Assembly (NCBI GenBank): GCA_028706255.1
Contig: JAQWBS010000001.1
Span: 23,617 to 87,616 of the forward strand
Direction: 5' to 3'
DNA length: 64,000 bases
Origin: Alphaproteobacteria bacterium
GTDB taxonomy: Bacteria > Pseudomonadota > Alphaproteobacteria > RF32 > CAG-239
The notes beneath the pieces are model-generated. The model was not told the origin of the DNA and did no database searches. It saw nothing but the letters and a program-made list of their open reading frames with translations. Shown piece after piece: positions 4,473-51,568 of this stretch (the first letter of the stretch is position 1; every line of letters begins with the position of its first letter). The position numbers were made by a program, and so were the translations under genes.

Positions 4473-4612
4473 CATTTTTTCCTTTTCTCTAATGCTTTGC
4501 ATGCAAAGCGGATAATACAGACCGATACTACCCTAAAACACAAAGATATATATCGGCAAATTAAAGGTTAAATACAAAATTTAAATCTAACCTAATTTCT
4601 TAAAATTTTAAT

Positions 4613-4696
4613 AGAGGGCTATGCTACAAAGATATTTTTGAGTGAGGTGTAGAAAAACTACACGAAAGAAAAAAATATCAAGTATGATAACCCTCT
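4613..4696 (-). repeat. Copy A of an ~85-nt imperfect-palindromic intergenic element (rpoA|rplQ spacer)
   Basis: It shares the core ...TTTTTGAgtGAgGTGTAG-aaaaa-CTACACGAaaGAAAAAAA..AAGTATGAtAaCC with copies at 9421-9506 and 21788-21875. The outer stem is AGAGGG/CCCTCT. It begins 9 nt after the rpoA stop. Confidence 0.6.
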
Positions 4697-4705
4697 TGTA
4701 AAATT

Positions 4706-5713
4706 CTAGAAGTGTTCGTCAACGCGACGAATCAAATCTTCAATATTTTCAGGTGGCCAACCAACAACTTCCATGCCGAGGTGGATACCCATTTTTGTAA
4801 GAACTTCTTTGATTTCATTCAAAGATTTTCTACCAAAGTTTGGTGTTCTGAGCATTTCTGCTTCTGTTTTTTGAACCAAATCACCAATATAAACAATGTT
4901 ATCATTCTTCAAGCAATTTGCAGAACGAACAGAAAGTTCAAGCTCTTCAACTTTTTTAAGAAGATTTCTGTTAAATGGAAGTTCTTCTTTTTCTGCTTTT
5001 GTTTCAACTTCAGGTTCATCAAAGTTAATGAAAGGCTTAAGTTGATCTTGCAAAATTCTTGCTGAATATGCAATCGCATCTTCAGGCGTGATAACACCAT
5101 TTGTTTCAATTACGAGTGTGAGTTTGTCATAGTCAGTCACTTGACCAACACGAGTATTCTCAACTTTGTAAGAAACTTTTTTAACTGGAGAATAAATTGC
5201 ATCAACTGCAATCACCCCAATTGGTGCATCAGCGGCTTTGTTTTGATATGCAGGAACATAGCCTTTTCCGGTTCCGACAGTAAATTCAACATTAATTTTT
5301 GCGCCAGCGTCCAATGTGCAAATGAAATGATTAGGATTTTTGATTTCAACATCATGTCCTGTTTGAATCATTGCAGCGGTAACTTCGCATGGACCTTCTG
5401 CTTTAAGGCTCATTGTTTTTGTGCCTTCGCCTTCAACGGCAACAGCCAAACCTTTAATGTTTAAAATAATGTCTGTAACATCTTCTTTAACACCTGGGAT
5501 TACAGTGAACTCATGCAAAACACCGTCAATTTTGACAGCTGTTACAGCGCCACCTTGCAAAGAAGAAAGTAAAACTCTTCTCAATGCATTACCCAAAGTT
5601 AGACCAAAACCTCTCTCAAGAGGCTCGACTACTATTTTAGCTCTGCTTGCACTTTCGTTAACAACGTCTAAATTAGTAGGTTTAATAAGTTCTTGCCAAT
5701 TCTTTTGAATCAC
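4706..5713 (-). CDS. rpoA: DNA-directed RNA polymerase subunit alpha
   Basis: Full-length alpha subunit with NTD and CTD ([20 protein letters not shown]), in its alpha-operon position. Confidence 0.95.
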
Positions 5714-8815: not shown

Positions 8816-8922
8816 CTCTATTTAATCCCTAAATAAATAACATTTCTAATTCAAAAATTTATAGGGCAGAAGCATACAGCTCATTCACTGCATCACAACC
8901 ACCCTACAAAAACACCTAAAAA

Positions 8923-9381: not shown

Positions 9382-9420
9382 TTTATTCACCTAATACAAA
9401 CATTTAATCAATGGGTTAGA

Positions 9421-9506
9421 TAAAGTGGCGTGCTACGAAGCAAATTTTTGACGACGTGTATTCTTAACTACACGAGGAAAAAATTTACAAGTATGACACC
9501 ACTTTA
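9421..9506 (-). repeat. Copy B of the ~85-nt imperfect-palindromic element (rpmD|rplO spacer)
   Basis: TAAAGTGGcgtgCTACGaagcaaaTTTTTGACGAcGTGTAttcttaacTACACGAGGAAAAAAtTTacAAGTATGACACCACTTTA. The perfect 8-bp closing stem is TAAAGTGG/CCACTTTA. It ends 14 nt after the rpmD stop. Confidence 0.65.
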
Positions 9507-9520
9507 GCAAATCCCCCAAA

Positions 9521-9706
9521 TTATTCTTCGATACGAACGAGGTGAGATACCTTTTGTACCATACCTCTGATTGAAGGAGTATCCTCAAGAACAGAAACTC
9601 TACCCATCTTGTTAAGACCAAGACCGATAAGAACTGCTCTTTGCTCTTTTGGACGACCAATTGGACTTCCAACTTGAACTAATTTAATAGTTTTTTTCGC
9701 AGCCAT
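9521..9706 (-). CDS. rpmD: 50S ribosomal protein L30
   Basis: [31 protein letters not shown] matches L30. Confidence 0.9.
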
Positions 9707-10658: not shown

Positions 10659-11195
10659 TTATTTCTTCTTACCTTCTTTACGACGTACATATTCACCAAC
10701 GTAACGAATTCCTTTTCCTTTGTAAGGTTCTGGTTTTCTATATTCGCGAATTTCAGCCGCAGTTTGACCTACTAAATCCTTATCAGCACCAAACACAGTA
10801 ATTTGGGTTGGTGATGTGCAAGTGATTGTAATGCCTTCAGGCGCAGGGAAAATCACATCATGAGAAAAACCAATCGAAAGGATTAATTCACTTCCTTGAA
10901 CACGTGATTTGTAACCAACACCAATAAGTTCTAGCTCTTTCTTAAAGCCTTCATTAACACCCAAAACAAGGTTATTAATTCTCGCCTTAACCGTACCCCA
11001 TAGAGTTCTAGATCTTTTGCTTTCAGATAAAGGAGCAACAACTACTTTACCTTCTTCCAATTTAACGTTGATAAGGCTGTTATCAAAATCATAATGAAGT
11101 TCGCCGAGTTTTCCCTTAGCAGTAACCACATTGTCTTTGATATCAACATTAACACCTTGAGGGACGATAACAGGATATTTACCAATTCTAGACAT
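10659..11195 (-). CDS. rplF: 50S ribosomal protein L6
   Basis: MSRIGKYPVIVPQGVNV...YKGKGIRYVGEYV matches L6. Confidence 0.95.
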   Translation of the reverse strand: MSRIGKYPVIVPQGVNVDIKDNVVTAKGKLGELHYDFDNSLINVKLEEGKVVVAPLSESKRSRTLWGTVKARINNLVLGVNEGFKKELELIGVGYKSRVQGSELILSIGFSHDVIFPAPEGITITCTSPTQITVFGADKDLVGQTAAEIREYRKPEPYKGKGIRYVGEYVRRKEGKKK

Positions 11196-11207
11196 ATCAC
11201 TTCCCCC

Positions 11208-11606
11208 TTAAAATACTTGACAAAGAACTTCACCGCCAACGTTAGATTTTCTAGCATCATGATCGCTCATAACACCCGCAGATGTTGAGATGATAGAAAT
11301 ACCCAAACCGTTGTAAACACGTGGAAGATCGTTTACACTTGCATAAACTCTTCTACCAGGTTTTGAAACACGGTGAATTTCAGTTATTACAGAAGTACCT
11401 TCATGATACTTCAATTGAATGCGAAGTTCGTCAATCCCAGCTTTAACATTGTATCTTTCGAAACCAACAATGTAGCCTTCTTTTTTAAGAACTTCTAAAA
11501 CATTTTCACGCAAACGAGAAGCTGGTGATACCACTTCAGTCTTCTTCGCTCTTTGTGCGTTTCTAATGCGAGTGAGCATATCGCCCAATGGATCAGAAAT
11601 AGACAT
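11208..11606 (-). CDS. rpsH: 30S ribosomal protein S8
   Basis: [18 protein letters not shown] matches S8. Confidence 0.95.
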
Positions 11607-21619: not shown

Positions 21620-21733
21620 AATATGATTTGTTTTAGATTAATAATTGAAAAATAGTAGTTTTATGAAAAAATCTTAACAGTTTAATTCACAAAGTCAACC
21701 ATTAAAAAATCACCAATTATTATCCATTATTAC

Positions 21734-21763
21734 AAAAAAAGAGCTCTTCAAAAGAAGGGCTCT
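21734..21763 (-). terminator. Rho-independent terminator of the str operon downstream of tuf
   Basis: AGAGCTCTTC-aaaa-GAAGgGCTCT hairpin followed by U7 on the minus strand. Confidence 0.6.
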
Positions 21764-21787
21764 TTCCTTTAACTAATTAAAGTTATA

Positions 21788-21875
21788 TAAATTGTGTGGG
21801 CTACGCCTTAAGTTTTTGACGAAGTGTACACAGAAAGTACACGAGGAAAAAACTTAAAAGTATGACACCAATTTA
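21788..21875 (-). repeat. Copy C of the ~85-nt imperfect-palindromic element, abutting the tuf stop codon
   Basis: TAAATTGtGTGggCTACGccttaagTTTTTGACGAaGTGTACacagaaaGTACACGAGGAAAAAAcTTaaAAGTATGACACCAATTTA. The closing stem is TAAATTG(t)GTG/CACCAATTTA. It ends 2 nt from the tuf stop. Confidence 0.65.
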
Positions 21876-21877
21876 GA

Positions 21878-23068
21878 TTACTTTAGAATCTTAGATACCA
21901 CACCGGCACCCACAGTTCTACCACCTTCACGGATTGCAAAACGAAGACCTTCGTCCATAGCAATTGGGTGAATGAGGTTTACTGTAATTGTTACGTTGTC
22001 TCCAGGCATTACCATTTCTGTTCCTGCTGGAAGTTCAATCGCTCCTGTTACGTCTGTTGTTCTGAAATAGAACTGTGGACGATAGTTACCGAAGAATGGC
22101 GTATGACGTCCACCTTCATCTTTGTTCAAGATATAGCATTCGCCATTGAAGCTTGTGTGTGGTGTGATTGAACCAGGAGCCGCTAATACTTGTCCACGTT
22201 CAACATCTTCTCTCTTCGTTCCACGAAGCAATACACCTACGTTATCACCTGCTTGACCACTATCCAACAATTTACGGAACATTTCAACGCCTGTACATGT
22301 TGTCTTAGCTGTTGGTTTAATGCCCACGATTTCCATTTCGTCACCAACTTTAATAACACCACGTTCTACACGACCTGTTACCACTGTTCCACGGCCTGAA
22401 ATTGAAAATACGTCTTCAATTGGCATCAAGAATGGTTTGTCAACTGCTCTTTCTGGTTGTGGAATATAAGCATCTACTGCATCCATCAAAGCAATAATTG
22501 CTTTCTTACCGATTTCTTCGTTGCTGTCTTCCAATGCTGCCAAAGCTGAACCTTTTACAATCGGAATTTCATCGCCAGGGAATTCGTATGAACTTAACAA
22601 ATCTCTGATTTCCATTTCAACGAGTTCCAACAATTCTTCATCATCAACTTGGTCTACTTTGTTCATAAATACTACCAAAGCTGGTACGCCTACTTGACGT
22701 GCCAACAAAATGTGTTCACGTGTTTGTGGCATTGGACCATCTGCTGATGATACCACCAAAATTGCACCATCCATTTGTGCCGCACCTGTAATCATATTCT
22801 TTACATAGTCAGCGTGGCCTGGGCAGTCTACGTGTGCATAGTGACGAGCCTTTGTTTCATATTCTACGTGTGACGTTGAAATCGTGATACCACGTGCTCT
22901 TTCTTCTGGTGCTTTATCAATATTTGCATAGTCTACAAATGCACCGCCGCCTTGTTCCGCCATAATCTTTGTAATTGCCGCTGTCAATGTCGTCTTACCA
23001 TGATCAACGTGACCAATCGTGCCAATGTTACAGTGCGGTTTATTACGCTCAAATTTCTCTTTTGCCAT
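21878..23068 (-). CDS. tuf: Elongation factor Tu
   Basis: [28 protein letters not shown] is the canonical EF-Tu N-terminus. Confidence 0.97.
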
Positions 23069-45277: not shown

Positions 45278-48200
45278 CTAAAAATTATATCTAATCGTCA
45301 AATAAAGTTGATCATCGGAATACCCTGAACGGCTATCTCTTGCATAACCAAAGTTTAACGCAAAAGGTGTATAAATGTTATTAATTTTCAAATTCATCTT
45401 ACCACGAATACTATCTCGACTATCTGGTGTTCCACTCACCGCCCATGGGCTTTCAGGACTTCCAACAAAATATGAATTAACACTCACATTTCTATCTCCA
45501 ACATTTCGTGCATATGCTAATTCAATGGCAGGCGAGAGAATAAAAGTATCAAAGACCATATTTTGAGAAAGTCTTAACCCAATTGGAAGCTCAACTGTAT
45601 TATAACTTGTTTTCTCAAAGTGACGGGCCCCGACACCTTTTTCATCATAAGCCTCAGTAAACATATAAGAATAATCAACACCGACAAAAGGCTCAATAAC
45701 ATAACGACTATTTCCCAAATCATAACCAAACTCAACATTTGAGAACAACACGCCTATATCATACTCTCCTCGGGCATTGAGACTGCTTGTTGTTAATTTC
45801 GTTTTATTGAGAATAATACCTCCACCAACGCTTCCCGTTGTATAAAGTCTTTTTGGTTTATATTTCCAATAACCTGACAATAAATATTCATCAACATCAG
45901 AGTGGCTATAAACATCACTTGCTCCTGTCCCTTCCACTTCTCCAAAAGCATAGCTAAAGGCAAGTCCTAAGGTTAAGGCATTTGGAATAATGTCATGATC
46001 ATATCCCCAAGCCAAGCTTGTTGGACGATATTCATAACCTAAACTATCCCAACGTCCTTTTTTCTCAACCCAATTTTTGCCGACATTAAACCATAAATGT
46101 TGGTCAGAAAAACCATTTAACATCCCACAACTCTGGCAATCTTTATTCTGAATGCGGGAATATATCTGACGATTAAATTGTCTAATCGTTGCTTTATGAA
46201 GCTCTTGATAAGATTTCGTATCCTCACCACCAACTGTTGCCAACTCTGATTTATATGCACTACTAACAGCCCCTGTATAATAAATATTTTCATAAACATC
46301 CCTATCTTTTTGGCTCAAATCATCACGTTTACGATAAATATCTGCAAAAGAAGACAACCCCTCATACCCTTCCAAATCTTTAACTTCAATTGAGGTTACA
46401 CCACCTTGACTTTCAACTTTAAGCAAATTATTTTCAAATCCTTCAAATTTACTATAATCCACATTGTATATATGTTGTTCTTCACCCGTTAAAGAAGAAA
46501 CATTATAAGGACGAAGCAAGGAAACGCCATTCACTGTTATGTCATTCCCAATATTCGCAATTTGACCATTTGTCACTTTTGGTTTAAAAACAGTTCCACC
46601 ATTAAAACTGATTGTTGCATTGCTTAAATCAAAAGAAAGTCTCTGTCCCAGAGGATCGTTCAAAACATCTTGCTTATTGTCAAACATGGCATAGAACGTT
46701 CCCTCTTCAATGTTTAATTCTCCACCGTATGCACTATTATCTCCCCAAAGAGATAAAGTTCCCTCTCCTATCTTATTAATTTCTCCATAAGCGCCAAAAG
46801 ACCCATCATCATTTCCACTTCTTAATGGATCCCAAATATTGATTGAAGATTGAGCGATTGAATTCAGGTTAACAACTCCCCCATTCCCCAAAAAGATTGA
46901 TTCCAATTTCTTCTCTTCTTGTGCAGTATCAGCATTCGTGATGATATAATTATTTGCAATGAAAATATTCTTCTTAGATTCTGTTGTTGCAATCGTGACA
47001 GCACCAGAATATGCATTATAAATCGCACCTCCTAAAGCAACATCATTGGCAGATTTTGCATAATTTCCAACAATATCCCCTGATAAGATGATTATACCAC
47101 CAAATGCGTTATAAATCGCTCCACCATAAGCACCTGTTTCCCCAAAAACATAATTTTGTACAAAATCTCCAGAAAGAGATGAGAATTGAGAACCACCTAT
47201 ATTATAGATTCCTCCGCCGGATGACGTAGCCATGATGGATTTTGCATAATTTTCAGTAACATCTCCAGATAAAGTAATTATACTACCAGATGCATTATAA
47301 ATCGCTCCACCATAAACACTTGTTTGACCCCAAACATAATTACGCACGAAATCCCCAGAAAGGGATGAGAATTGAGAACCAGATGCATTATAGACTGCTC
47401 CGCCATACGACGTAGCAGTAGCAGATTTTGCATAATTTTCTACCATATTTCCAGATATAGTTATTATACCGCTATTATCATTATAAATTGCCCCTCCACT
47501 AGCATCTGTCTGAGCAGAAGCATAGTTTCTATAAAAATAGCCTACATTATTCATTCTAGATGAAGAAGTGACGTAAATCGCCCCACCCCTCGCCCAATCA
47601 GAACTTGAAAAAGCATAATTTTCAATAAAACTACTTTCTAAACTATTCAAAATAGATGTATTCTCAGCATAAATTGCCCCTCCAGAAGCTTGTTCATAAG
47701 CAAAAACATAATTACCCTTGAAATCTCCAGAAAGGGAATCAATTTTCCCAGCATCCACATAGATTGCCCCACCCTGCGCATTATCTGAGCTTGAAATGGC
47801 ATAATTTTCAAAAAAAGCTCCATTCAGCTGAGTAATTCTCGTACTATTATACATTCCAATTGCCCCACCAGCAACCTCTTCAACTCCAGAAACATAATTT
47901 TGAATAAAATTGCTTTTAACGCTATCTAAAAGCGTGCCGTTCCCAAGAACTTGAATAGCCCCTGAATAAGCACTATCGGAAGAAGATGTCGCAGAGTTTC
48001 CAATAAAATCTCCCTCAATCTCAGAAATAGTTGAGTCATAACCTTGAAAGATTGCCCCACCATATGCTTTTCCATAAGCTTCCACATTATTTTTTATAAA
48101 ATTTCCTTTAATAGATTTAATTTTTCCATATTGATTATAAATCGCCCCGCCTTGACCAACACCAGAGAAAGAAATTGCGGAATTTCCAATAAAATCGCCG

Positions 48201-49072
48201 CTAAGATCCATAATATTATATGCTTCAAGTCCTAAATGGTTATTATAAATTGCGCCACCAAGAGCATTACTAGATGCCTTTACATAGTTTCCGATAAAAC
48301 TTCCTTGAATATCTCCAAAATAACTATAAGTACCAAACAAAGCTCCTCCGAGAGCCTCACTTGATGTTGAAACAACATAATTTCCAATAAAATCACCTGT
48401 TATTGACCCAAGATTATGATTTGCATAACCACTGTAAATTGCACCACCCCTCCCTGAATTAACACCATCTACGTAATTTCCGATAAAATTTCCAGTAATA
48501 CTCTCAATCTTATGTCCTCCGGTTGCAATGTTATTCGAAACATAAATTGCACCACCAAACCCAGATACATGATTACCTATAAAATCTCCAATAATATTAC
48601 CTATTTCCGTTACTGATGTAGAAGGATAACCAACAAAAATAGCACCCCCATCTTCATCATAATTTCCTAAAAAATCAGAAGTAATATTACCAACATCACC
48701 ACCGAGAGTGTTTGTAATGGCTCTTCCACCGGCATAACTTTCAGAGGTATAAGCCTCAACAAAATGACCATCAACGGAATTTACATTTCCCGCACTATTA
48801 GTAATTGGAGCTTGACTAACCACGTCAGGCTTAATTGAGACTGTATATTTATAGAATTTTTTTTGGTATTCCCCATTTGAATCTTTTTCAAAAGTGGAGA
48901 AATCTGCATTACTTTCATCTGTTGCTTCATAGATTAAAACATAGGCACTCTCAGCACTTAGGTGATCTAATGTGGGGGTATAGGTGCTGAAATCAACAAC
49001 AGCATAGGCTCTTGATGAAGACACAAAAGCTATGAGAGGGAGGAGGAGGAGAAATCTAAACTTACTGTTCAT
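45278..49072 (-). CDS. Pmp-like (polymorphic-membrane-protein-type) autotransporter, 1264 aa
   Basis: The signal peptide is MNSKFRFLLLLPLIAFVSSSRAYA. The passenger has about 18 GGA[IV] and about 15 F/V-x-x-N-[YH] motifs in 25-30-aa repeats. The C-terminal ~290 aa form a beta-barrel domain ending ...LYLTIRYNF (terminal aromatic). The start is the ATG at 49072. Confidence 0.85.
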   Translation of the reverse strand: MNSKFRFLLLLPLIAFVSSSRAYAVVDFSTYTPTLDHLSAESAYVLIYEATDESNADFSTFEKDSNGEYQKKFYKYTVSIKPDVVSQAPITNSAGNVNSVDGHFVEAYTSESYAGGRAITNTLGGDVGNITSDFLGNYDEDGGAIFVGYPSTSVTEIGNIIGDFIGNHVSGFGGAIYVSNNIATGGHKIESITGNFIGNYVDGVNSGRGGAIYSGYANHNLGSITGDFIGNYVVSTSSEALGGALFGTYSYFGDIQGSFIGNYVKASSNALGGAIYNNHLGLEAYNIMDLSGDFIGNSAISFSGVGQGGAIYNQYGKIKSIKGNFIKNNVEAYGKAYGGAIFQGYDSTISEIEGDFIGNSATSSSDSAYSGAIQVLGNGTLLDSVKSNFIQNYVSGVEEVAGGAIGMYNSTRITQLNGAFFENYAISSSDNAQGGAIYVDAGKIDSLSGDFKGNYVFAYEQASGGAIYAENTSILNSLESSFIENYAFSSSDWARGGAIYVTSSSRMNNVGYFYRNYASAQTDASGGAIYNDNSGIITISGNMVENYAKSATATSYGGAVYNASGSQFSSLSGDFVRNYVWGQTSVYGGAIYNASGSIITLSGDVTENYAKSIMATSSGGGIYNIGGSQFSSLSGDFVQNYVFGETGAYGGAIYNAFGGIIILSGDIVGNYAKSANDVALGGAIYNAYSGAVTIATTESKKNIFIANNYIITNADTAQEEKKLESIFLGNGGVVNLNSIAQSSINIWDPLRSGNDDGSFGAYGEINKIGEGTLSLWGDNSAYGGELNIEEGTFYAMFDNKQDVLNDPLGQRLSFDLSNATISFNGGTVFKPKVTNGQIANIGNDITVNGVSLLRPYNVSSLTGEEQHIYNVDYSKFEGFENNLLKVESQGGVTSIEVKDLEGYEGLSSFADIYRKRDDLSQKDRDVYENIYYTGAVSSAYKSELATVGGEDTKSYQELHKATIRQFNRQIYSRIQNKDCQSCGMLNGFSDQHLWFNVGKNWVEKKGRWDSLGYEYRPTSLAWGYDHDIIPNALTLGLAFSYAFGEVEGTGASDVYSHSDVDEYLLSGYWKYKPKRLYTTGSVGGGIILNKTKLTTSSLNARGEYDIGVLFSNVEFGYDLGNSRYVIEPFVGVDYSYMFTEAYDEKGVGARHFEKTSYNTVELPIGLRLSQNMVFDTFILSPAIELAYARNVGDRNVSVNSYFVGSPESPWAVSGTPDSRDSIRGKMNLKINNIYTPFALNFGYARDSRSGYSDDQLYLTIRYNF
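47008..48673 (-). repeat. Coding repeat region of the autotransporter passenger (GDFIGNY...GGAIY units)
   Basis: A regular alternation of FxxN and GGAI motifs is seen in the translation. The coordinates are approximate. Confidence 0.6.
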
Positions 49073-49188
49073 AAGACAACATCCTGTATTAATAATTTGA
49101 AAGAATATAACATTATTATCACATAAATTTAATAAATATTCAATTAATAATCTTTCTCTCTCCACTAAGAATGTATAATATAGTATAC

Positions 49189-50410: not shown

Positions 50411-50563
50411 TTTTATATTTTTCCTATTTTTTATTTTTTTACTATCTAACGAGATAAACAACCAAATAACTTATTATGTGAGAAGAGAACGAAGAGCGTT
50501 TTGAACGACGCTTACAATTAGCTAAGCGAGAAAAAACGCTCAAGTTATATTCCACAGAATGAG

Positions 50564-51568
50564 TTATTTTACGGCTTGAAGAGCAGTAATCGCAATAACC
50601 CCCACAATGTCTTCTGCAAAAGCACCACGTGACAAGTCGTTGATTGGTGCGTTTAAACCTTGAAGCATTGGACCATAAGCTTCGCAATTACCTAAACGTT
50701 GCAAAAGTTTGTAACCAATATTTCCGGCATTTAAGTCTGGGAAAATGAGCGTATTTGCACGTCCGCCAACTTTGCTTTGTGGAGCTTTCTTGGTTGCAAC
50801 AACAACATCCAAAGCTGTGTCTGCCTGCATTTCACCATCAAGCAAAATATTTTTGCTTTTAAATTCGTCTGCTTCTAGCATTTCTTTAGCAATTTTAGCT
50901 GCTTCACGCACTTTATCAACCCCTTCCCCAACACCTGAGCCGAAAGAAGAATATGAAAGCATTGCAATTCTTGGATCAATGCCAAATTGCATCACACTTT
51001 CTGCCGTTGAAATGGCGATGTCAGCCAGTTCTTGTGAAGTTGGATTAATATTAATTGCACAATCAGAGAAGAAATATTGCTTTCCACCTGAAATCATAAT
51101 CAAGAAAGAAGAAACTGTTCTGCCTTTTTTTGCAGATTTAATAATTTGTAAAGCAGGACGAACGGTGTCAGCTGTTGAGTGATTCGCACCACTGACCATT
51201 CCGTCAGCATCGCCAGCTTTCACCATCAATGTTCCGAAATAGTTATATTTCAAAGCTGTTTGCTTGGCTTGTTCTTCAGTCATACCTTTCTCTTTACGAA
51301 GGTCATAAAGTAACTTTGTATATTCTTCCAACTTTTCGGATTCTTCAGGCTTAATAATGGTAATTCCATCTAGATTCCAATTATTATCATCAAAATAGTG
51401 CTTAATTTCTTTATAATCACCTAAAACAATAATTTTAGCTGCTTTTTCCTTATTAATAATGTTTGCTGCACGCAAAACACGGGGATCTTCTCCCTCAGGA
51501 AGAACAATGGTTTTATAGTGAGGTCTGGCTTTATCAACCAACCCCTTCAAATATTGACTTTCAATCAT
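50564..51568 (-). CDS. pta: Phosphate acetyltransferase (short, PTA_PTB-domain-only form)
   Basis: 334-aa Pta-type sequence (VSGANHSTADTVRPALQII) upstream of ackA. Confidence 0.9.
   Translation of the reverse strand: MIESQYLKGLVDKARPHYKTIVLPEGEDPRVLRAANIINKEKAAKIIVLGDYKEIKHYFDDNNWNLDGITIIKPEESEKLEEYTKLLYDLRKEKGMTEEQAKQTALKYNYFGTLMVKAGDADGMVSGANHSTADTVRPALQIIKSAKKGRTVSSFLIMISGGKQYFFSDCAININPTSQELADIAISTAESVMQFGIDPRIAMLSYSSFGSGVGEGVDKVREAAKIAKEMLEADEFKSKNILLDGEMQADTALDVVVATKKAPQSKVGGRANTLIFPDLNAGNIGYKLLQRLGNCEAYGPMLQGLNAPINDLSRGAFAEDIVGVIAITALQAVK

What the first reader, a model, noticed from the sequence alone, without database searches (positions are those of the whole stretch)
9421..9506. 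Novel ~85-nt imperfect-palindromic element family placed right after stop codons inside the ribosomal-protein/tuf operons, with compensatory base changes in its closing stem
Three copies (4613-4696, 9421-9506, 21788-21875) share a conserved plus-strand core: CTACG-N6-TTTTTGACGA-GTGTA(N6-9)TACAC-GAGGAAAAAA-N2-4-AAGTATGACACC. Each has a central 5-6-bp hairpin and T-run/A-run arms. The outermost arms differ between copies yet always pair: A has AGAGGG/CCCTCT, B has TAAAGTGG/CCACTTTA, C has TAAATTG/CAATTTA. Between B and C a G-to-T change on the 5' arm is matched by a C-to-A change on the 3' arm. That covariation points to selection on a folded structure, whether an RNA or a DNA cruciform. All three copies lie in the same orientation relative to minus-strand transcription. 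They start 2-14 nt after the stop codons of tuf, rpmD and rpoA. They inflate spacers that are normally a few nt to 139 nt (rpmD|rplO) and 233 nt (rpoA|rplQ). They are not terminators, because no U-run follows on either strand. The layout is like REP/RPE/MITE-type palindromic repeats. I do not recognise the sequence as any described family.
Basis: seen in the sequence. Interest (0 to 1): 0.85.

Follow-up and report, generated by a model that had tools for sequence, protein, structure and literature searches.

The report
Palindromic repeat family hugging stop codons
A previously undescribed hairpin-forming DNA repeat of about 108 bases is scattered through uncultured gut Alphaproteobacteria and sits directly on the stop codons of housekeeping genes in one orientation; it is a new family of a well-known kind of bacterial repeat (REP/ERIC/Correia-like), not a new kind of system.

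Summary
The three copies exist and match a motif that no shuffle of the window reproduces. They are longer than reported (about 108 nt, four helices P1-P4 plus a 3-bp helix). A fourth, diverged copy lies between pta and ackA.

The family is not specific to ribosomal-protein operons. The same element occurs in 13 uncultured gut or rumen Alphaproteobacteria MAGs and in about 58 metagenome contigs. There it follows pgk, pyk, pfk, pnp, ychF, glmM, a kdsB-like gene, fabG and a tRNA.

In 32 of 51 distinct loci it starts within 12 nt of the upstream gene's stop codon (or tRNA end), always in the same orientation. The stop codon is usually paired inside the outermost helix.

Covariation is strong: 35 of 38 pairs show double changes, and 87% of cells are paired against 37-50% in slid controls. 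G·U and A·C mismatches are equally common, so there is no RNA-strand signature.

Copies can be identical at different loci of one genome. They form tandem arrays, chimeras and "corrected" palindromes, and they are gained, decayed or lost at orthologous spacers.

There is no match in Rfam, phages or plasmids. It is not a canonical terminator.

Verdict: a new family of interspersed palindromic repeats, most likely a co-transcribed 3'-UTR or intercistronic hairpin of selfish origin. Interest is moderate.

The parts
9411..9518 (-). Copy B, the reported one. It lies in the rpmD|rplO spacer. Read on the minus (transcribed) strand it begins 3 nt after the rpmD stop codon. The covariance model was built in the opposite ('F') orientation, so it hits the + strand.
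   Evidence: CM R1 97.9 bits; fold z -7.1; gene calls.
9432..9437 (+). Conserved unpaired/3-bp-helix motif GCTACG of copy B (GCTRCG in the family). Its TAC pairs with the GTA of AAGTATGA.
   Evidence: Nearly invariant columns in A6; pair 26-87 covaries A-T 22 / G-C 16 / G·T 3.
9455..9476 (+). Apical hairpin P4 of copy B (C-GTGTA ... TACAC-G) with its flanking GACGAC / GAG loop residues. This is the most conserved module of the family.
   Evidence: Diverged copies keep the pairing with other sequences: GCTTA/TAAGC in copy D, GCGTAC/GTACGC in L007:1184.
9489..9496 (+). Conserved motif AAGTATGA of copy B (AAGYATGA in the family).
9521..9523 (-). rpmD (L30) stop codon TAA.
4602..4709 (-). Copy A, in the rpoA|rplQ spacer. 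The rpoA stop codon TAG (4706-4708) lies inside the outer helix P1.
   Evidence: CM 90.5 bits; folds; offset +1. An orthologous copy is in relative L001.
21778..21887 (-). Copy C, directly after tuf. The stop codon TAA (21878-21880) and the last Leu-Lys codons pair with the distal arm.
   Evidence: CM 91.2 bits; Pfam EF-Tu; fold.
21727..21769 (-). Canonical intrinsic terminator (GC-containing stem, UUUU loop, U7 tail) about 10 nt downstream of copy C. It shows that the element itself is not the tuf terminator.
   Evidence: -18.9 kcal/mol, z -4.1; sequence.
50466..50569 (-). Copy D, a diverged member in the pta|ackA spacer. The pta stop codon TAA (50564-50566) lies inside P1. The apical stem has changed to GCTTA/TAAGC with pairing kept.
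   Evidence: CM 52.4 bits; fold z -6.2; Pfam PTA_PTB and Acetate_kinase.

Best explanation
The finding is one member of a lineage-specific family of interspersed, hairpin-forming palindromic repeats. Each copy is about 108 nt and forms a rod of helices P1-P2-(3 bp)-P3-P4, separated by three conserved asymmetric internal loops. The family lives in uncultured gut and rumen Alphaproteobacteria.

Shown:
- The family is multi-copy and dynamic. Copies can be identical at different loci of one genome. There are tandem arrays, chimeras, and mosaics with other repeat units, and copies are gained, decayed or lost at orthologous spacers.
- Individual insertions can nevertheless persist across genera with compensatory stem changes.
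- The element is almost always oriented the same way relative to the upstream gene. It starts on or within about 12 nt of that gene's stop codon, or of a tRNA 3' end.

Inferred:
- It is co-transcribed with the upstream gene and folds in the mRNA as a very stable 3'-UTR or intercistronic hairpin whose base encloses the stop codon.
- Like REP, ERIC and Correia elements, it most likely acts as a barrier to 3'->5' exonucleases and/or as a double-strand RNase processing site. That would set the 3' end and stability of the upstream cistron, and differential expression within operons such as rpmD|rplO, rpoA|rplQ and pta|ackA. A hairpin this close to the stop codon might also affect translation termination.
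- It originated and spread as a non-autonomous mobile or recombining DNA element.
- Stem complementarity is kept at least partly by DNA-level palindrome correction, not only by selection on RNA.
For: Family and structure:
- Motif count is 3 observed vs 0 expected in the window.
- There are 18 true hits in 13 Alphaproteobacteria MAGs out of 185,579 species genomes, and 58 forward CM hits in metagenome contigs.
- On 41 distinct sequences, 87.4% of cells are paired vs 37-50% when partners are slid. 35 of 38 pairs have double changes. The covariation score is 0.537 vs <=0.17.

Orientation and stop codon:
- Of 51 distinct loci, 31 have an ORF stop at -12..+12 and 1 has a tRNA end, all in the same orientation. 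Only one locus shows the opposite arrangement.
- The stop codon is paired in 24 of 31 loci, and at least 3 coding nt are paired in 26 of 31.
- Each locus's own outer arms fit each other better than arms from other loci (-8.8 vs -4.4 kcal/mol).

Not the terminator:
- A canonical terminator follows copy C.
- Copies A, B and D sit inside operons.

Dynamics:
- L002 and L013 are 108/108 identical at the pgk and kdsB-like loci of one MAG.
- Tandem arrays in L020, L022, L007, L039, L040, L046, L060, L097 and L109 are always co-oriented.
- Chimeras L074 and L077 and 'corrected' palindromes L079 and L109:321 exist.
- At rpmD|rplO the element is present in the window and in L029 with a homologous flank, absent in the sister taxon L027, and decayed in L028.

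Precedent: REPs lie <20 bp from upstream ORF ends, can supply stop codons, and are thought to act as RNA (PMC3733652). REP-containing mRNAs are structured targets that need RNase R and PNPase (PMC12320835).
Against: - No transcript data exist, so co-transcription and any RNA role are inferred.
- There is no RNA-strand signature. G·U on the F strand numbers 52, against 53 A·C (which equal G·U on the transcribed strand).
- At the two best-conserved covarying pairs the intermediates are G·T on the non-transcribed F strand only (7:0).
- The F strand folds on average 3.5 kcal/mol better than the transcribed strand (32 of 41 sequences).
- A few copies lie downstream of a T-tract terminator, possibly outside the transcript (L051, L098, L036:716).
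- No transposase or clear target-site duplication was found.
- The element is lost without obvious harm in L027, so any function is dispensable.
Confidence: 0.55

Rival explanations
1. It is a purely DNA-level selfish element. The hairpin would be recognised as single-stranded or cruciform DNA by a transposase or recombinase, for example an HUH/Y1 RAYT-like enzyme or a TA/TAA-targeting IS630- or IS5-type enzyme acting in trans. The fixed orientation and stop-codon position would reflect insertion polarity and target preference plus purifying selection elsewhere. The RNA hairpin would be a by-product.
For: - G·U and A·C mismatches are symmetric.
- Palindrome-corrected variants, chimeras and identical copies at different loci exist.
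- Orthologous sites show presence and absence.
- The youngest copies read TAA|AAAG...CTTT|TAA/TAG, compatible with a TA or TAA duplication.
- The F-strand hairpin is more stable.
- Conserved asymmetric loops contain GTAG and GTCG-type motifs reminiscent of REP tags.
Against: - No transposase lies next to any copy, and there is no IS200-like ORF in 885 kb of loci (a weak test).
- There are no inverted (REPIN-like) pairs; all arrays are direct.
- The upstream gene is co-oriented in 32 of 33 informative loci. That is tighter than ordinary leading-strand gene bias would give.
- Position varies over -12..+12 rather than sitting in one register.
- Two tuf-linked copies in different genera pair with different gene-specific coding sequence.
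- Insertions have persisted across genera with compensatory changes.
Confidence: 0.27
2. It is a dedicated cis-regulatory element of highly expressed housekeeping genes. The conserved internal loops (GCURCG / CAAGYAUGA, CGACGAC / GAG, or their complements) would be bound by a specific protein. That protein would control translation termination, ribosome recycling or mRNA decay at a stop codon held inside the helix.
For: - Loop sequences are nearly invariant while all helices covary.
- The stop codon is paired in 24 of 31 loci, and outer arms are adapted to each gene's 3' end.
- Upstream genes are mostly translation, glycolysis or acetate genes: tuf, rpoA, rpmD, rplO, pnp, ychF, pgk, pyk, pfk, pta.
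- The element is conserved at tuf and rpmD across genera.
Against: - There is no G·U excess on the transcribed strand.
- The element is dispensable and variable at orthologous sites.
- Identical copies, tandem arrays and chimeras are typical of repeats, not of regulators.
- Loop invariance is partly an artefact of how the sequences were collected, because the search pattern required GTGTA, TACACGA and AAGYATGA.
- No partner protein has been identified.
- The set of upstream genes may be biased toward conserved, well-assembled loci.
Confidence: 0.12
3. It is an unusual, possibly bidirectional, intrinsic transcription terminator or attenuator family. On both strands the 5' arm is A-rich and the 3' arm is U-rich.
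For: - The outer arms read AAAAGTTTG...CAAACTTTTT or AAATCCAAAG...CTTTGGATTT.
- Relatives carry canonical terminator-like hairpins at the same place after rpoA and rplO.
Against: - The consensus scan flags none of the copies.
- In the window the P2 stem is followed by only about 3 U and then A/C.
- Copies A, B and D precede essential co-transcribed genes.
- Copy C is followed by a separate canonical terminator, and some copies follow a terminator.
Confidence: 0.05

Closest known systems
REP / BIME elements of Enterobacteria and the GTAG- and CGTC-tagged REP super-families (Di Nocera et al. 2013, PMC3733652)
   Same: - Multi-copy, extragenic and hairpin-forming.
- Lie mostly after unidirectional or convergent genes, within <20 bp of the upstream ORF end.
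- Sometimes supply the stop codon.
- Form clusters and mosaics with other repeats.
- CGTC-type REPs are typical of Alphaproteobacteria and have no linked transposase.
- REP dimers can be nested in long palindromes.
   Different: - About 108 nt with four helices, not a 20-40 nt single stem-loop.
- The tag next to the apical stem is CGAC (or CCTC...GTCG on the other strand), not 5'-CGTC or 5'-GTAG.
- The apical stem is 6-7 bp starting with GT, the loop is 5-9 nt, and there is no CCA tail.
- Arrays are head-to-tail, never head-to-head.
- No RAYT was found.
ERIC/IRU (about 127 bp) and Correia/CREE (about 100-155 bp) elements, i.e. MITE-like whole-element palindromes
   Same: - Similar size, with the whole element folding as one long imperfect hairpin.
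- Co-transcribed with neighbouring genes, with orientation-dependent effects on mRNA.
- Long terminal pairing could serve RNase III, as shown for Correia elements (abstract of PMC2649163).
- Presence/absence polymorphism between relatives.
   Different: - No sequence similarity.
- Different host lineage.
- Near-absolute orientation rule and stop-codon embedding.
- Conserved asymmetric internal loops with freely covarying stems, rather than overall sequence conservation.
- TA target duplication not demonstrated.
Rickettsia palindromic elements (RPE) and Rhizobium RIME mosaics (from my own knowledge; RPE-4 and RPE-6 are equated with CGTC REPs)
   Same: Alphaproteobacterial palindromic repeats that are lineage-specific and form mosaics. 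Some extend or enter ORFs; here glmM-type copies add the tail EKSK*.
   Different: - RPEs are often inserted in-frame inside genes. This family is extragenic and anchored at gene 3' ends.
- No sequence relationship was tested (no RPE or RIME sequences were available in the tools).
Integron attC / VCR sites
   Same: Imperfect palindromes of 60-140 nt placed directly after an ORF, all in one orientation. Structure is conserved more than sequence, with extrahelical or unpaired conserved positions.
   Different: - No RYYYAAC / GTTRRRY core sites.
- The neighbours are scattered core housekeeping genes and a tRNA, not promoterless cassettes in an array.
- No integrase context.

Membership tests
REP (RAYT-associated, GTAG type) | 20-40 nt single stem-loop with an unpaired 5' GTAG/GTGG tag | tested here: not met
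   The element is about 108 nt with four helices. GTAG occurs only as CGTAGC on the transcribed strand, 3' of the P3/P4 hairpin, and is partly paired.
REP (RAYT-associated, GTAG type) | Inverted pairs (REPINs) and copies flanking a RAYT (Y1/HUH) gene | tested here: not met
   All multi-copy loci are head-to-tail. phmmer with a recalled IS200 TnpA found nothing in 3,898 ORFs from 885 kb. This is a weak test, because whole genomes were not available.
CGTC-tagged REPs of Alphaproteobacteria (PMC3733652) | Terminal CGTC (or TGTC/CCTC) tag, 8-9 bp stem starting with complementary A/T, 4-5 nt loop, CCA tail, head-to-head dimers | tested here: not met
   The apical unit is CGAC-GTGTAC-N5-9-GTACAC-GAG. 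The stem is 6-7 bp starting with G-C/T-A, the loop is 5-9 nt, there is no CCA tail, and there are no head-to-head dimers (against the criteria). CCTC precedes the stem on the other strand in some copies, which is a resemblance only.
MITE (non-autonomous transposon) | Terminal inverted repeats | tested here: met
   P1+P2 form an imperfect inverted repeat of about 20 bp at the two ends, e.g. TAAAAAGTTTGCAAAGAGCTTG / CAAGCTCTTATCAAACTTTTTA.
MITE (non-autonomous transposon) | Target-site duplication and a cognate autonomous IS with the same ends | tested here: inconclusive
   The youngest copies are flanked by TAA...TAA/TAG/TGG, compatible with a TA or TAA duplication. The A/T-run termini and adjoining repeat units make the boundary ambiguous. 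No full-length IS with these ends was seen in the loci.
MITE / mobile repeat in general | Presence/absence at orthologous sites and near-identical copies at unrelated sites | tested here: met
   The rpmD|rplO spacer is filled in the window and L029, empty (3 nt) in L027 and decayed in L028. The rpoA|rplQ spacer is filled only in the window and L001. L002 and L013 are 108/108 identical at different genes of one MAG.
Intrinsic (Rho-independent) terminator | Short GC-rich stem-loop immediately followed by a U-tract | tested here: not met
   The consensus scan does not flag any copy. The tails are UUUAUC-type. A separate canonical terminator follows copy C.
Any curated RNA family (Rfam 15) | Covariance-model match | tested here: not met
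   No hit at gathering thresholds in the window. No hit on the element at E<=1 in three loci that carry it.
Structured functional RNA (generic) | Compensatory covariation, with G·U tolerated far more than A·C on the functional strand | tested here: inconclusive
   Covariation is strong, but G·U vs A·C is 52:53, so no strand can be nominated. Phylogeny-aware statistics (R-scape) are not available here.
Integron attC | R''/R' core sites (RYYYAAC...GTTRRRY) and cassette/integrase context | tested here: not met
   No such conserved termini appear in the alignment. The neighbours are core genes.

The most novel reading that the evidence does not exclude
The element may be more than a passive repeat. 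It could be a stop-codon-clamping device: a mobile hairpin whose outer arm becomes complementary to each host gene's last codons and stop codon, with conserved asymmetric loops read by a dedicated, still unknown protein. It would tune translation termination or ribosome release and the 3'-end decay of highly expressed genes in a genome-reduced gut alphaproteobacterial lineage. A DNA-level variant of this reading is a new class of long REP-like substrate for an unrecognised single-strand transposase that targets gene 3' ends.
Probability: 0.15. Interest if true: 0.75.

Novelty: new member of a known kind. Interest (0 to 1): 0.45.

Why it matters
It adds a well-defined, structurally supported repeat family to an uncultured and barely studied group of gut Alphaproteobacteria. 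The covariance model built here can be used to annotate these MAGs, to explain inflated spacers inside otherwise compact ribosomal-protein operons, and as a strain or lineage marker.

Several features make it a clean natural system for two old questions about REP-like elements: whether they work as RNA or as DNA, and whether stem covariation reflects selection or palindrome correction. Those features are:
- the near-absolute orientation rule;
- the embedding of the stop codon in the helix;
- persistence of single insertions across genera with compensatory changes;
- the complete lack of a G·U bias.

If the hairpin does modulate termination or decay of tuf, rpoA, glycolytic and acetate-pathway mRNAs, it would be a lineage-wide layer of post-transcriptional control.

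Tried and rejected
- **Rfam.** Gathering thresholds on the window and E<=1 on three loci that carry the element gave only tRNAs and noise.
- **Phage, plasmid and viral origin.** No blastn hits in phages or plasmids. One chance pattern hit in viral contigs was not confirmed by the CM.
- **Terminator reading.** Rejected for the window copies.
- **Ribozyme or riboswitch ideas** (hairpin-ribozyme-like loops, K-turn, loop E). Considered from the loop sequences. The registers do not fit and Rfam models do not match, so they were dropped.
- **attC, parS, dif or DnaA/IHF-site readings.** Considered from sequence only. There are no defining core motifs, and the variable loop length in P4 argues against a dsDNA dimer operator.
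- **RAYT/IS200 partner.** phmmer with a recalled IS200 TnpA against all ORFs of the fetched loci found nothing. The query came from memory and the sample is not whole genomes.
- **Target-site duplication.** Inspection of the flanks of the youngest copies was ambiguous.
- **Strand assignment.** Not resolved by G·U vs A·C counts. MFE favours the non-transcribed strand, which I could not explain beyond the purine-rich loops.
- **Replication versus transcription.** Separating the two as the cause of the orientation rule was not possible with loci of 8-20 kb.
- **Chance hits discarded from the scans.** L009 (27.6 bits, CM E about 0.004), L016, L019, L021, L024 and L025. L015, from a 'Clostridia' MAG, matches the 3' half well but scores only 21.8 bits and was left out.

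Full report
**Observation.** The three reported copies are present and alignable. A core pattern (GTGTA-N5-9-TACACGA-N12-16-AAGTATGA) occurs three times in the window and never in 100 dinucleotide-preserving shuffles. Each copy folds as a long imperfect hairpin far more stable than shuffles, as RNA (z -5 to -8) and as DNA, on both strands.

**Anatomy.** Aligning the window copies with relatives shows that the unit is about 108 nt, not 85. I call F the orientation that reads GCTRCG...GTGTAC...GTACACGAG...AAGYATGA (the + strand of the window), and R its reverse complement, which is the strand of the flanking genes.

The F-strand consensus (on alignment A6) runs as follows:
- P1, about 9 bp;
- GATAA;
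- P2, about 9 bp;
- gtGCTrCGccG, whose TRC pairs with the GYA of the 3' motif;
- P3, about 10 bp, T-run/A-run in the window but GC-rich elsewhere;
- cGAcGAC;
- P4, (C)GTGTAC, a 5-9 nt loop, GTACAC(G);
- GAG, then the return arm of P3;
- CAAGYATGAc, then the return arm of P2;
- TTTGC, then the return arm of P1.

A covariance model (R1) finds exactly four copies in the window even with filters off: 4602-4709, 9411-9518, 21778-21887, and a diverged one at 50466-50569. The fourth copy lies between pta and ackA (Pfam). Its apical stem has become GCTTA/TAAGC with pairing kept.

**Distribution.** A scan of one genome per species (185,579 species) with the strict pattern returned 25 loci. Eighteen are true members, and all come from 13 uncultured Alphaproteobacteria or 'proteobacterium' MAGs from human, mouse, deer and rumen gut. 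The window's own RpoA is 100% identical to a protein named 'MAG: Alphaproteobacteria bacterium'. A metagenome scan gave 83 loci, and the model confirmed 58 forward hits. In all there are 72 distinct element sequences. Nothing similar is in Rfam, phages, plasmids or viral contigs.

**Context.**
- Across 51 distinct upstream flanks, 31 have an ORF of at least 50 codons whose stop codon starts between -12 and +12 of the R-oriented element.
- One copy follows a tRNA-Val by 0-1 nt.
- Five follow another copy in tandem.
- About four follow a T-tract terminator.
- Only one (L011) is in the opposite orientation. There it abuts the yidC start codon with the Shine-Dalgarno sequence inside P1.

The upstream genes are varied: EF-Tu, RpoA, L30, L15, Pta, PGK, pyruvate kinase, ADP-dependent PFK, PNPase, YchF, GlmM, a KdsB-like cytidylyltransferase and FabG. 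The element is therefore not a ribosomal-operon feature.

In the predicted fold of the transcript, at least 2 nt of the stop codon are paired in 24 of 31 loci, and at least 3 coding nt pair with the distal arm in 26 of 31. The outer arms of a locus fit each other better than arms from other loci (-8.8 vs -4.4 kcal/mol). Two tuf-linked copies in different genera pair different coding sequences (CUAAAGUAA in the window, AAAAUAGUG in L023) with matching distal arms. In GlmM-type copies the ORF runs 12 nt into the element and ends at an internal TAA, giving the tail EKSK*.

**Structure tests.** I counted pairs on 41 distinct sequences and 38 pairs.
- 87.4% of cells form standard pairs, against 37-50% when partners are slid and 65.7% in column shuffles.
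- 35 pairs show changes on both sides.
- The covariation score is 0.537 against <=0.17 (RNAalifold agrees).
- Mismatches are symmetric: 52 G·U on F against 53 A·C on F, which equal G·U on R. A single functional RNA strand should tolerate G·U far better than A·C.
- At the two best-conserved covarying pairs the intermediates are G·T on F only (7:0).
- F folds 3.5 kcal/mol better than R on average (32 of 41 sequences). I cannot explain this beyond the purine-rich loops.

The sequences were collected with a pattern that fixes GTGTA, TACACGA and AAGYATGA, so invariance there is partly by construction. Copies found only by the model show that P4 itself covaries.

**Dynamics.**
- Two copies at different genes of one MAG are 108/108 identical (L002 after pgk, L013 after the kdsB-like gene).
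- Others in one genome share P1/P2 but differ in P3 (L005 and L014).
- Tandem arrays of 2-3 copies are common and always head-to-tail.
- There are chimeras (L074, L077).
- In some copies the 5' loop GCTGCG has been overwritten by the exact complement of CAAGCATGA (L079, L109:321). That is the signature of one arm templating the other.
- The element is often followed by other repeat units, including a shorter related hairpin (AGCCGAATAATAAGATTTTAGGGTGGAGAAAGCGGAGTGTAC...). The result is BIME/RIME-like mosaics.

I compared orthologous spacers in four relatives (RpoA 85-89% identical; tree (window, L027)|(L028, L029, L030)).
- At rpmD|rplO the element is present in the window and L029 with a homologous flank (GGGGAYTTTGC) and compensated stems. 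It is reduced to a different hairpin in L028 and absent (3-nt spacer) in L027.
- L027 instead has a copy at rplO|secY.
- At rpoA|rplQ only the window and L001 have it. The others carry ordinary terminator-like hairpins there.

So insertions can be ancient and maintained, and they can also be lost.

**What it is not.** It is not a canonical terminator. The consensus scan ignores it. Copies A, B and D precede co-transcribed genes. Copy C is followed about 10 nt later by a textbook terminator. It fails the defining features of GTAG-REP/RAYT, CGTC-REP and attC (see the membership table; criteria from PMC3733652). No IS200-like transposase lies in 885 kb of fetched loci (a weak test).

**Mechanism.** What is shown is a dispersed, dynamic palindromic repeat family with a strict polarity relative to the upstream gene and a base that encloses the stop codon. 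What I infer, by analogy with REP, ERIC and Correia elements, is as follows.
- It is co-transcribed and forms a very stable 3'-UTR or intercistronic hairpin.
- That hairpin blocks 3'->5' exonucleases and/or is processed by a double-strand RNase. This would fix the 3' end and stability of the upstream cistron and uncouple it from the downstream one.
- From my own knowledge, a 2015 study by Liang, Rudd and Deutscher reported that REPs within 15 nt of a stop codon can stall terminating ribosomes and lower expression of the upstream gene. I did not retrieve that paper here.

The analogy rests on these sources: REP mRNAs as structured targets needing RNase R and PNPase (PMC12320835); REPs lying <20 bp from ORF ends, supplying stop codons and probably acting as RNA (PMC3733652); and Correia elements binding RNase III (PMC2649163 abstract).

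The symmetric mismatch spectrum and the corrected palindromes indicate that much of the 'covariation' is produced or assisted at the DNA level, by template switching or gene conversion between arms and between copies. I put 0.55 on this combined reading.

The rivals are:
- a purely DNA-level element whose polarity comes from the insertion mechanism (0.27);
- a dedicated protein-bound regulatory element of highly expressed genes (0.12);
- a weak or bidirectional terminator (0.05).

**Novelty and value.** It is a new family of a known kind. Several properties are unusually clean: the orientation rule, stop-codon embedding, conserved asymmetric loops with freely covarying stems, cross-genus persistence, and no G·U bias. 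The lineage is unstudied, so the family is a useful annotation tool and a good test case for the RNA-versus-DNA question about REP-like repeats. It does not by itself reveal a new mechanism.

Noticed in passing
window 4494-4511 (minus strand), just upstream of rplQ; also L028 about 11425-11450, L029 about 11195-11220, L030 about 11160-11185: A small conserved hairpin, CCGCTTTGC-N-GCAAAGC followed by AGAGAAAAGGA and the start codon, lies in the rplQ (L17) 5' region of the window and three relatives. L030 has two compensatory changes (GACTTGCC...GTCAAGTC). It could be an L17 leader or processing signal. It is independent of the repeat family.
   Followed up: partly
L002:6817-6917, L010:147-241, L013:2022-2116, L017:1256-1350: A second, shorter hairpin repeat (AGCCGAATAATAAGATTTTAGGGTGGAGAAAGCGGAGTGTAC-N6-GTACATGAGC...CTAAATCTGTATTAGTCGGCC). 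It shares the GTGTAC/GTACA(Y)GAG apical module but lacks the GCTRCG/AAGYATGA loop. It usually sits about 13 nt downstream of a main copy. On the gene strand its start contains a perfect TATAAT. A third unit (GYGCTCTGTGGTCAC) also recurs after main copies (L008, L017, L020, L006).
   Followed up: partly
L079:1816-1922 and L109:321-427: These are variants in which the 5' loop GCTGCG is replaced by TCATGCTTG, the exact complement of the 3' loop CAAGCATGA. The imperfect palindrome becomes a perfect one, which looks like arm-to-arm template switching. L079 consequently scores on both strands with the model.
   Followed up: partly
alignment A6 (41 family members): The non-transcribed F strand folds more stably as RNA than the transcribed R strand in 32 of 41 sequences (mean -42.1 vs -38.6 kcal/mol, p = 2e-4), although G·U counts are equal. 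This is unexplained; it is possibly an effect of the purine-rich internal loops.
   Followed up: partly
window 45278-49165 (minus strand): A 1,295-aa autotransporter (Pfam Autotransporter beta-domain, 1.9e-36). Its passenger domain is built of repeats of about 62 aa (186 nt) carrying GGAI(Y) and F-x-x-N motifs reminiscent of chlamydial polymorphic membrane proteins.
   Followed up: partly
window 8816-8922 (rplO|secY spacer, minus strand): An unrelated stable hairpin (GUAGGGUGG...CUGCCCUAU, about -31 kcal/mol for the spacer) fills this spacer. Relatives have canonical terminator-like hairpins (L028, L029) or a copy of the repeat (L027) at the same place. Hairpins of different origin seem interchangeable at these intercistronic positions.
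   Followed up: partly
L011:6558-6665 (also L071): This is the only copy in the opposite orientation. It ends exactly at the yidC start codon, and the Shine-Dalgarno sequence (GGAAAG) lies inside the outer helix.
   Followed up: no
L015:1603-1706 ('Clostridia bacterium' MAG) and L009:2875-2974 ('Nanoarchaeota' MAG): These are weak model hits outside Alphaproteobacteria bins. L015 matches the 3' half well (GTACACGAGCAAG...CAAGTATGAC) right after a 226-codon ORF, which suggests a mis-binned contig or a diverged member. L009 looks like chance.
   Followed up: no
L028:6131-6234 (rpmD|rplO spacer): The hairpin here begins with the same flank as the element in the window and L029 (TAGGGAGATTGCC...) and contains GCATGAC before its 3' arm, but it has lost the interior. 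It is probably a decayed remnant of the same ancient insertion.
   Followed up: no
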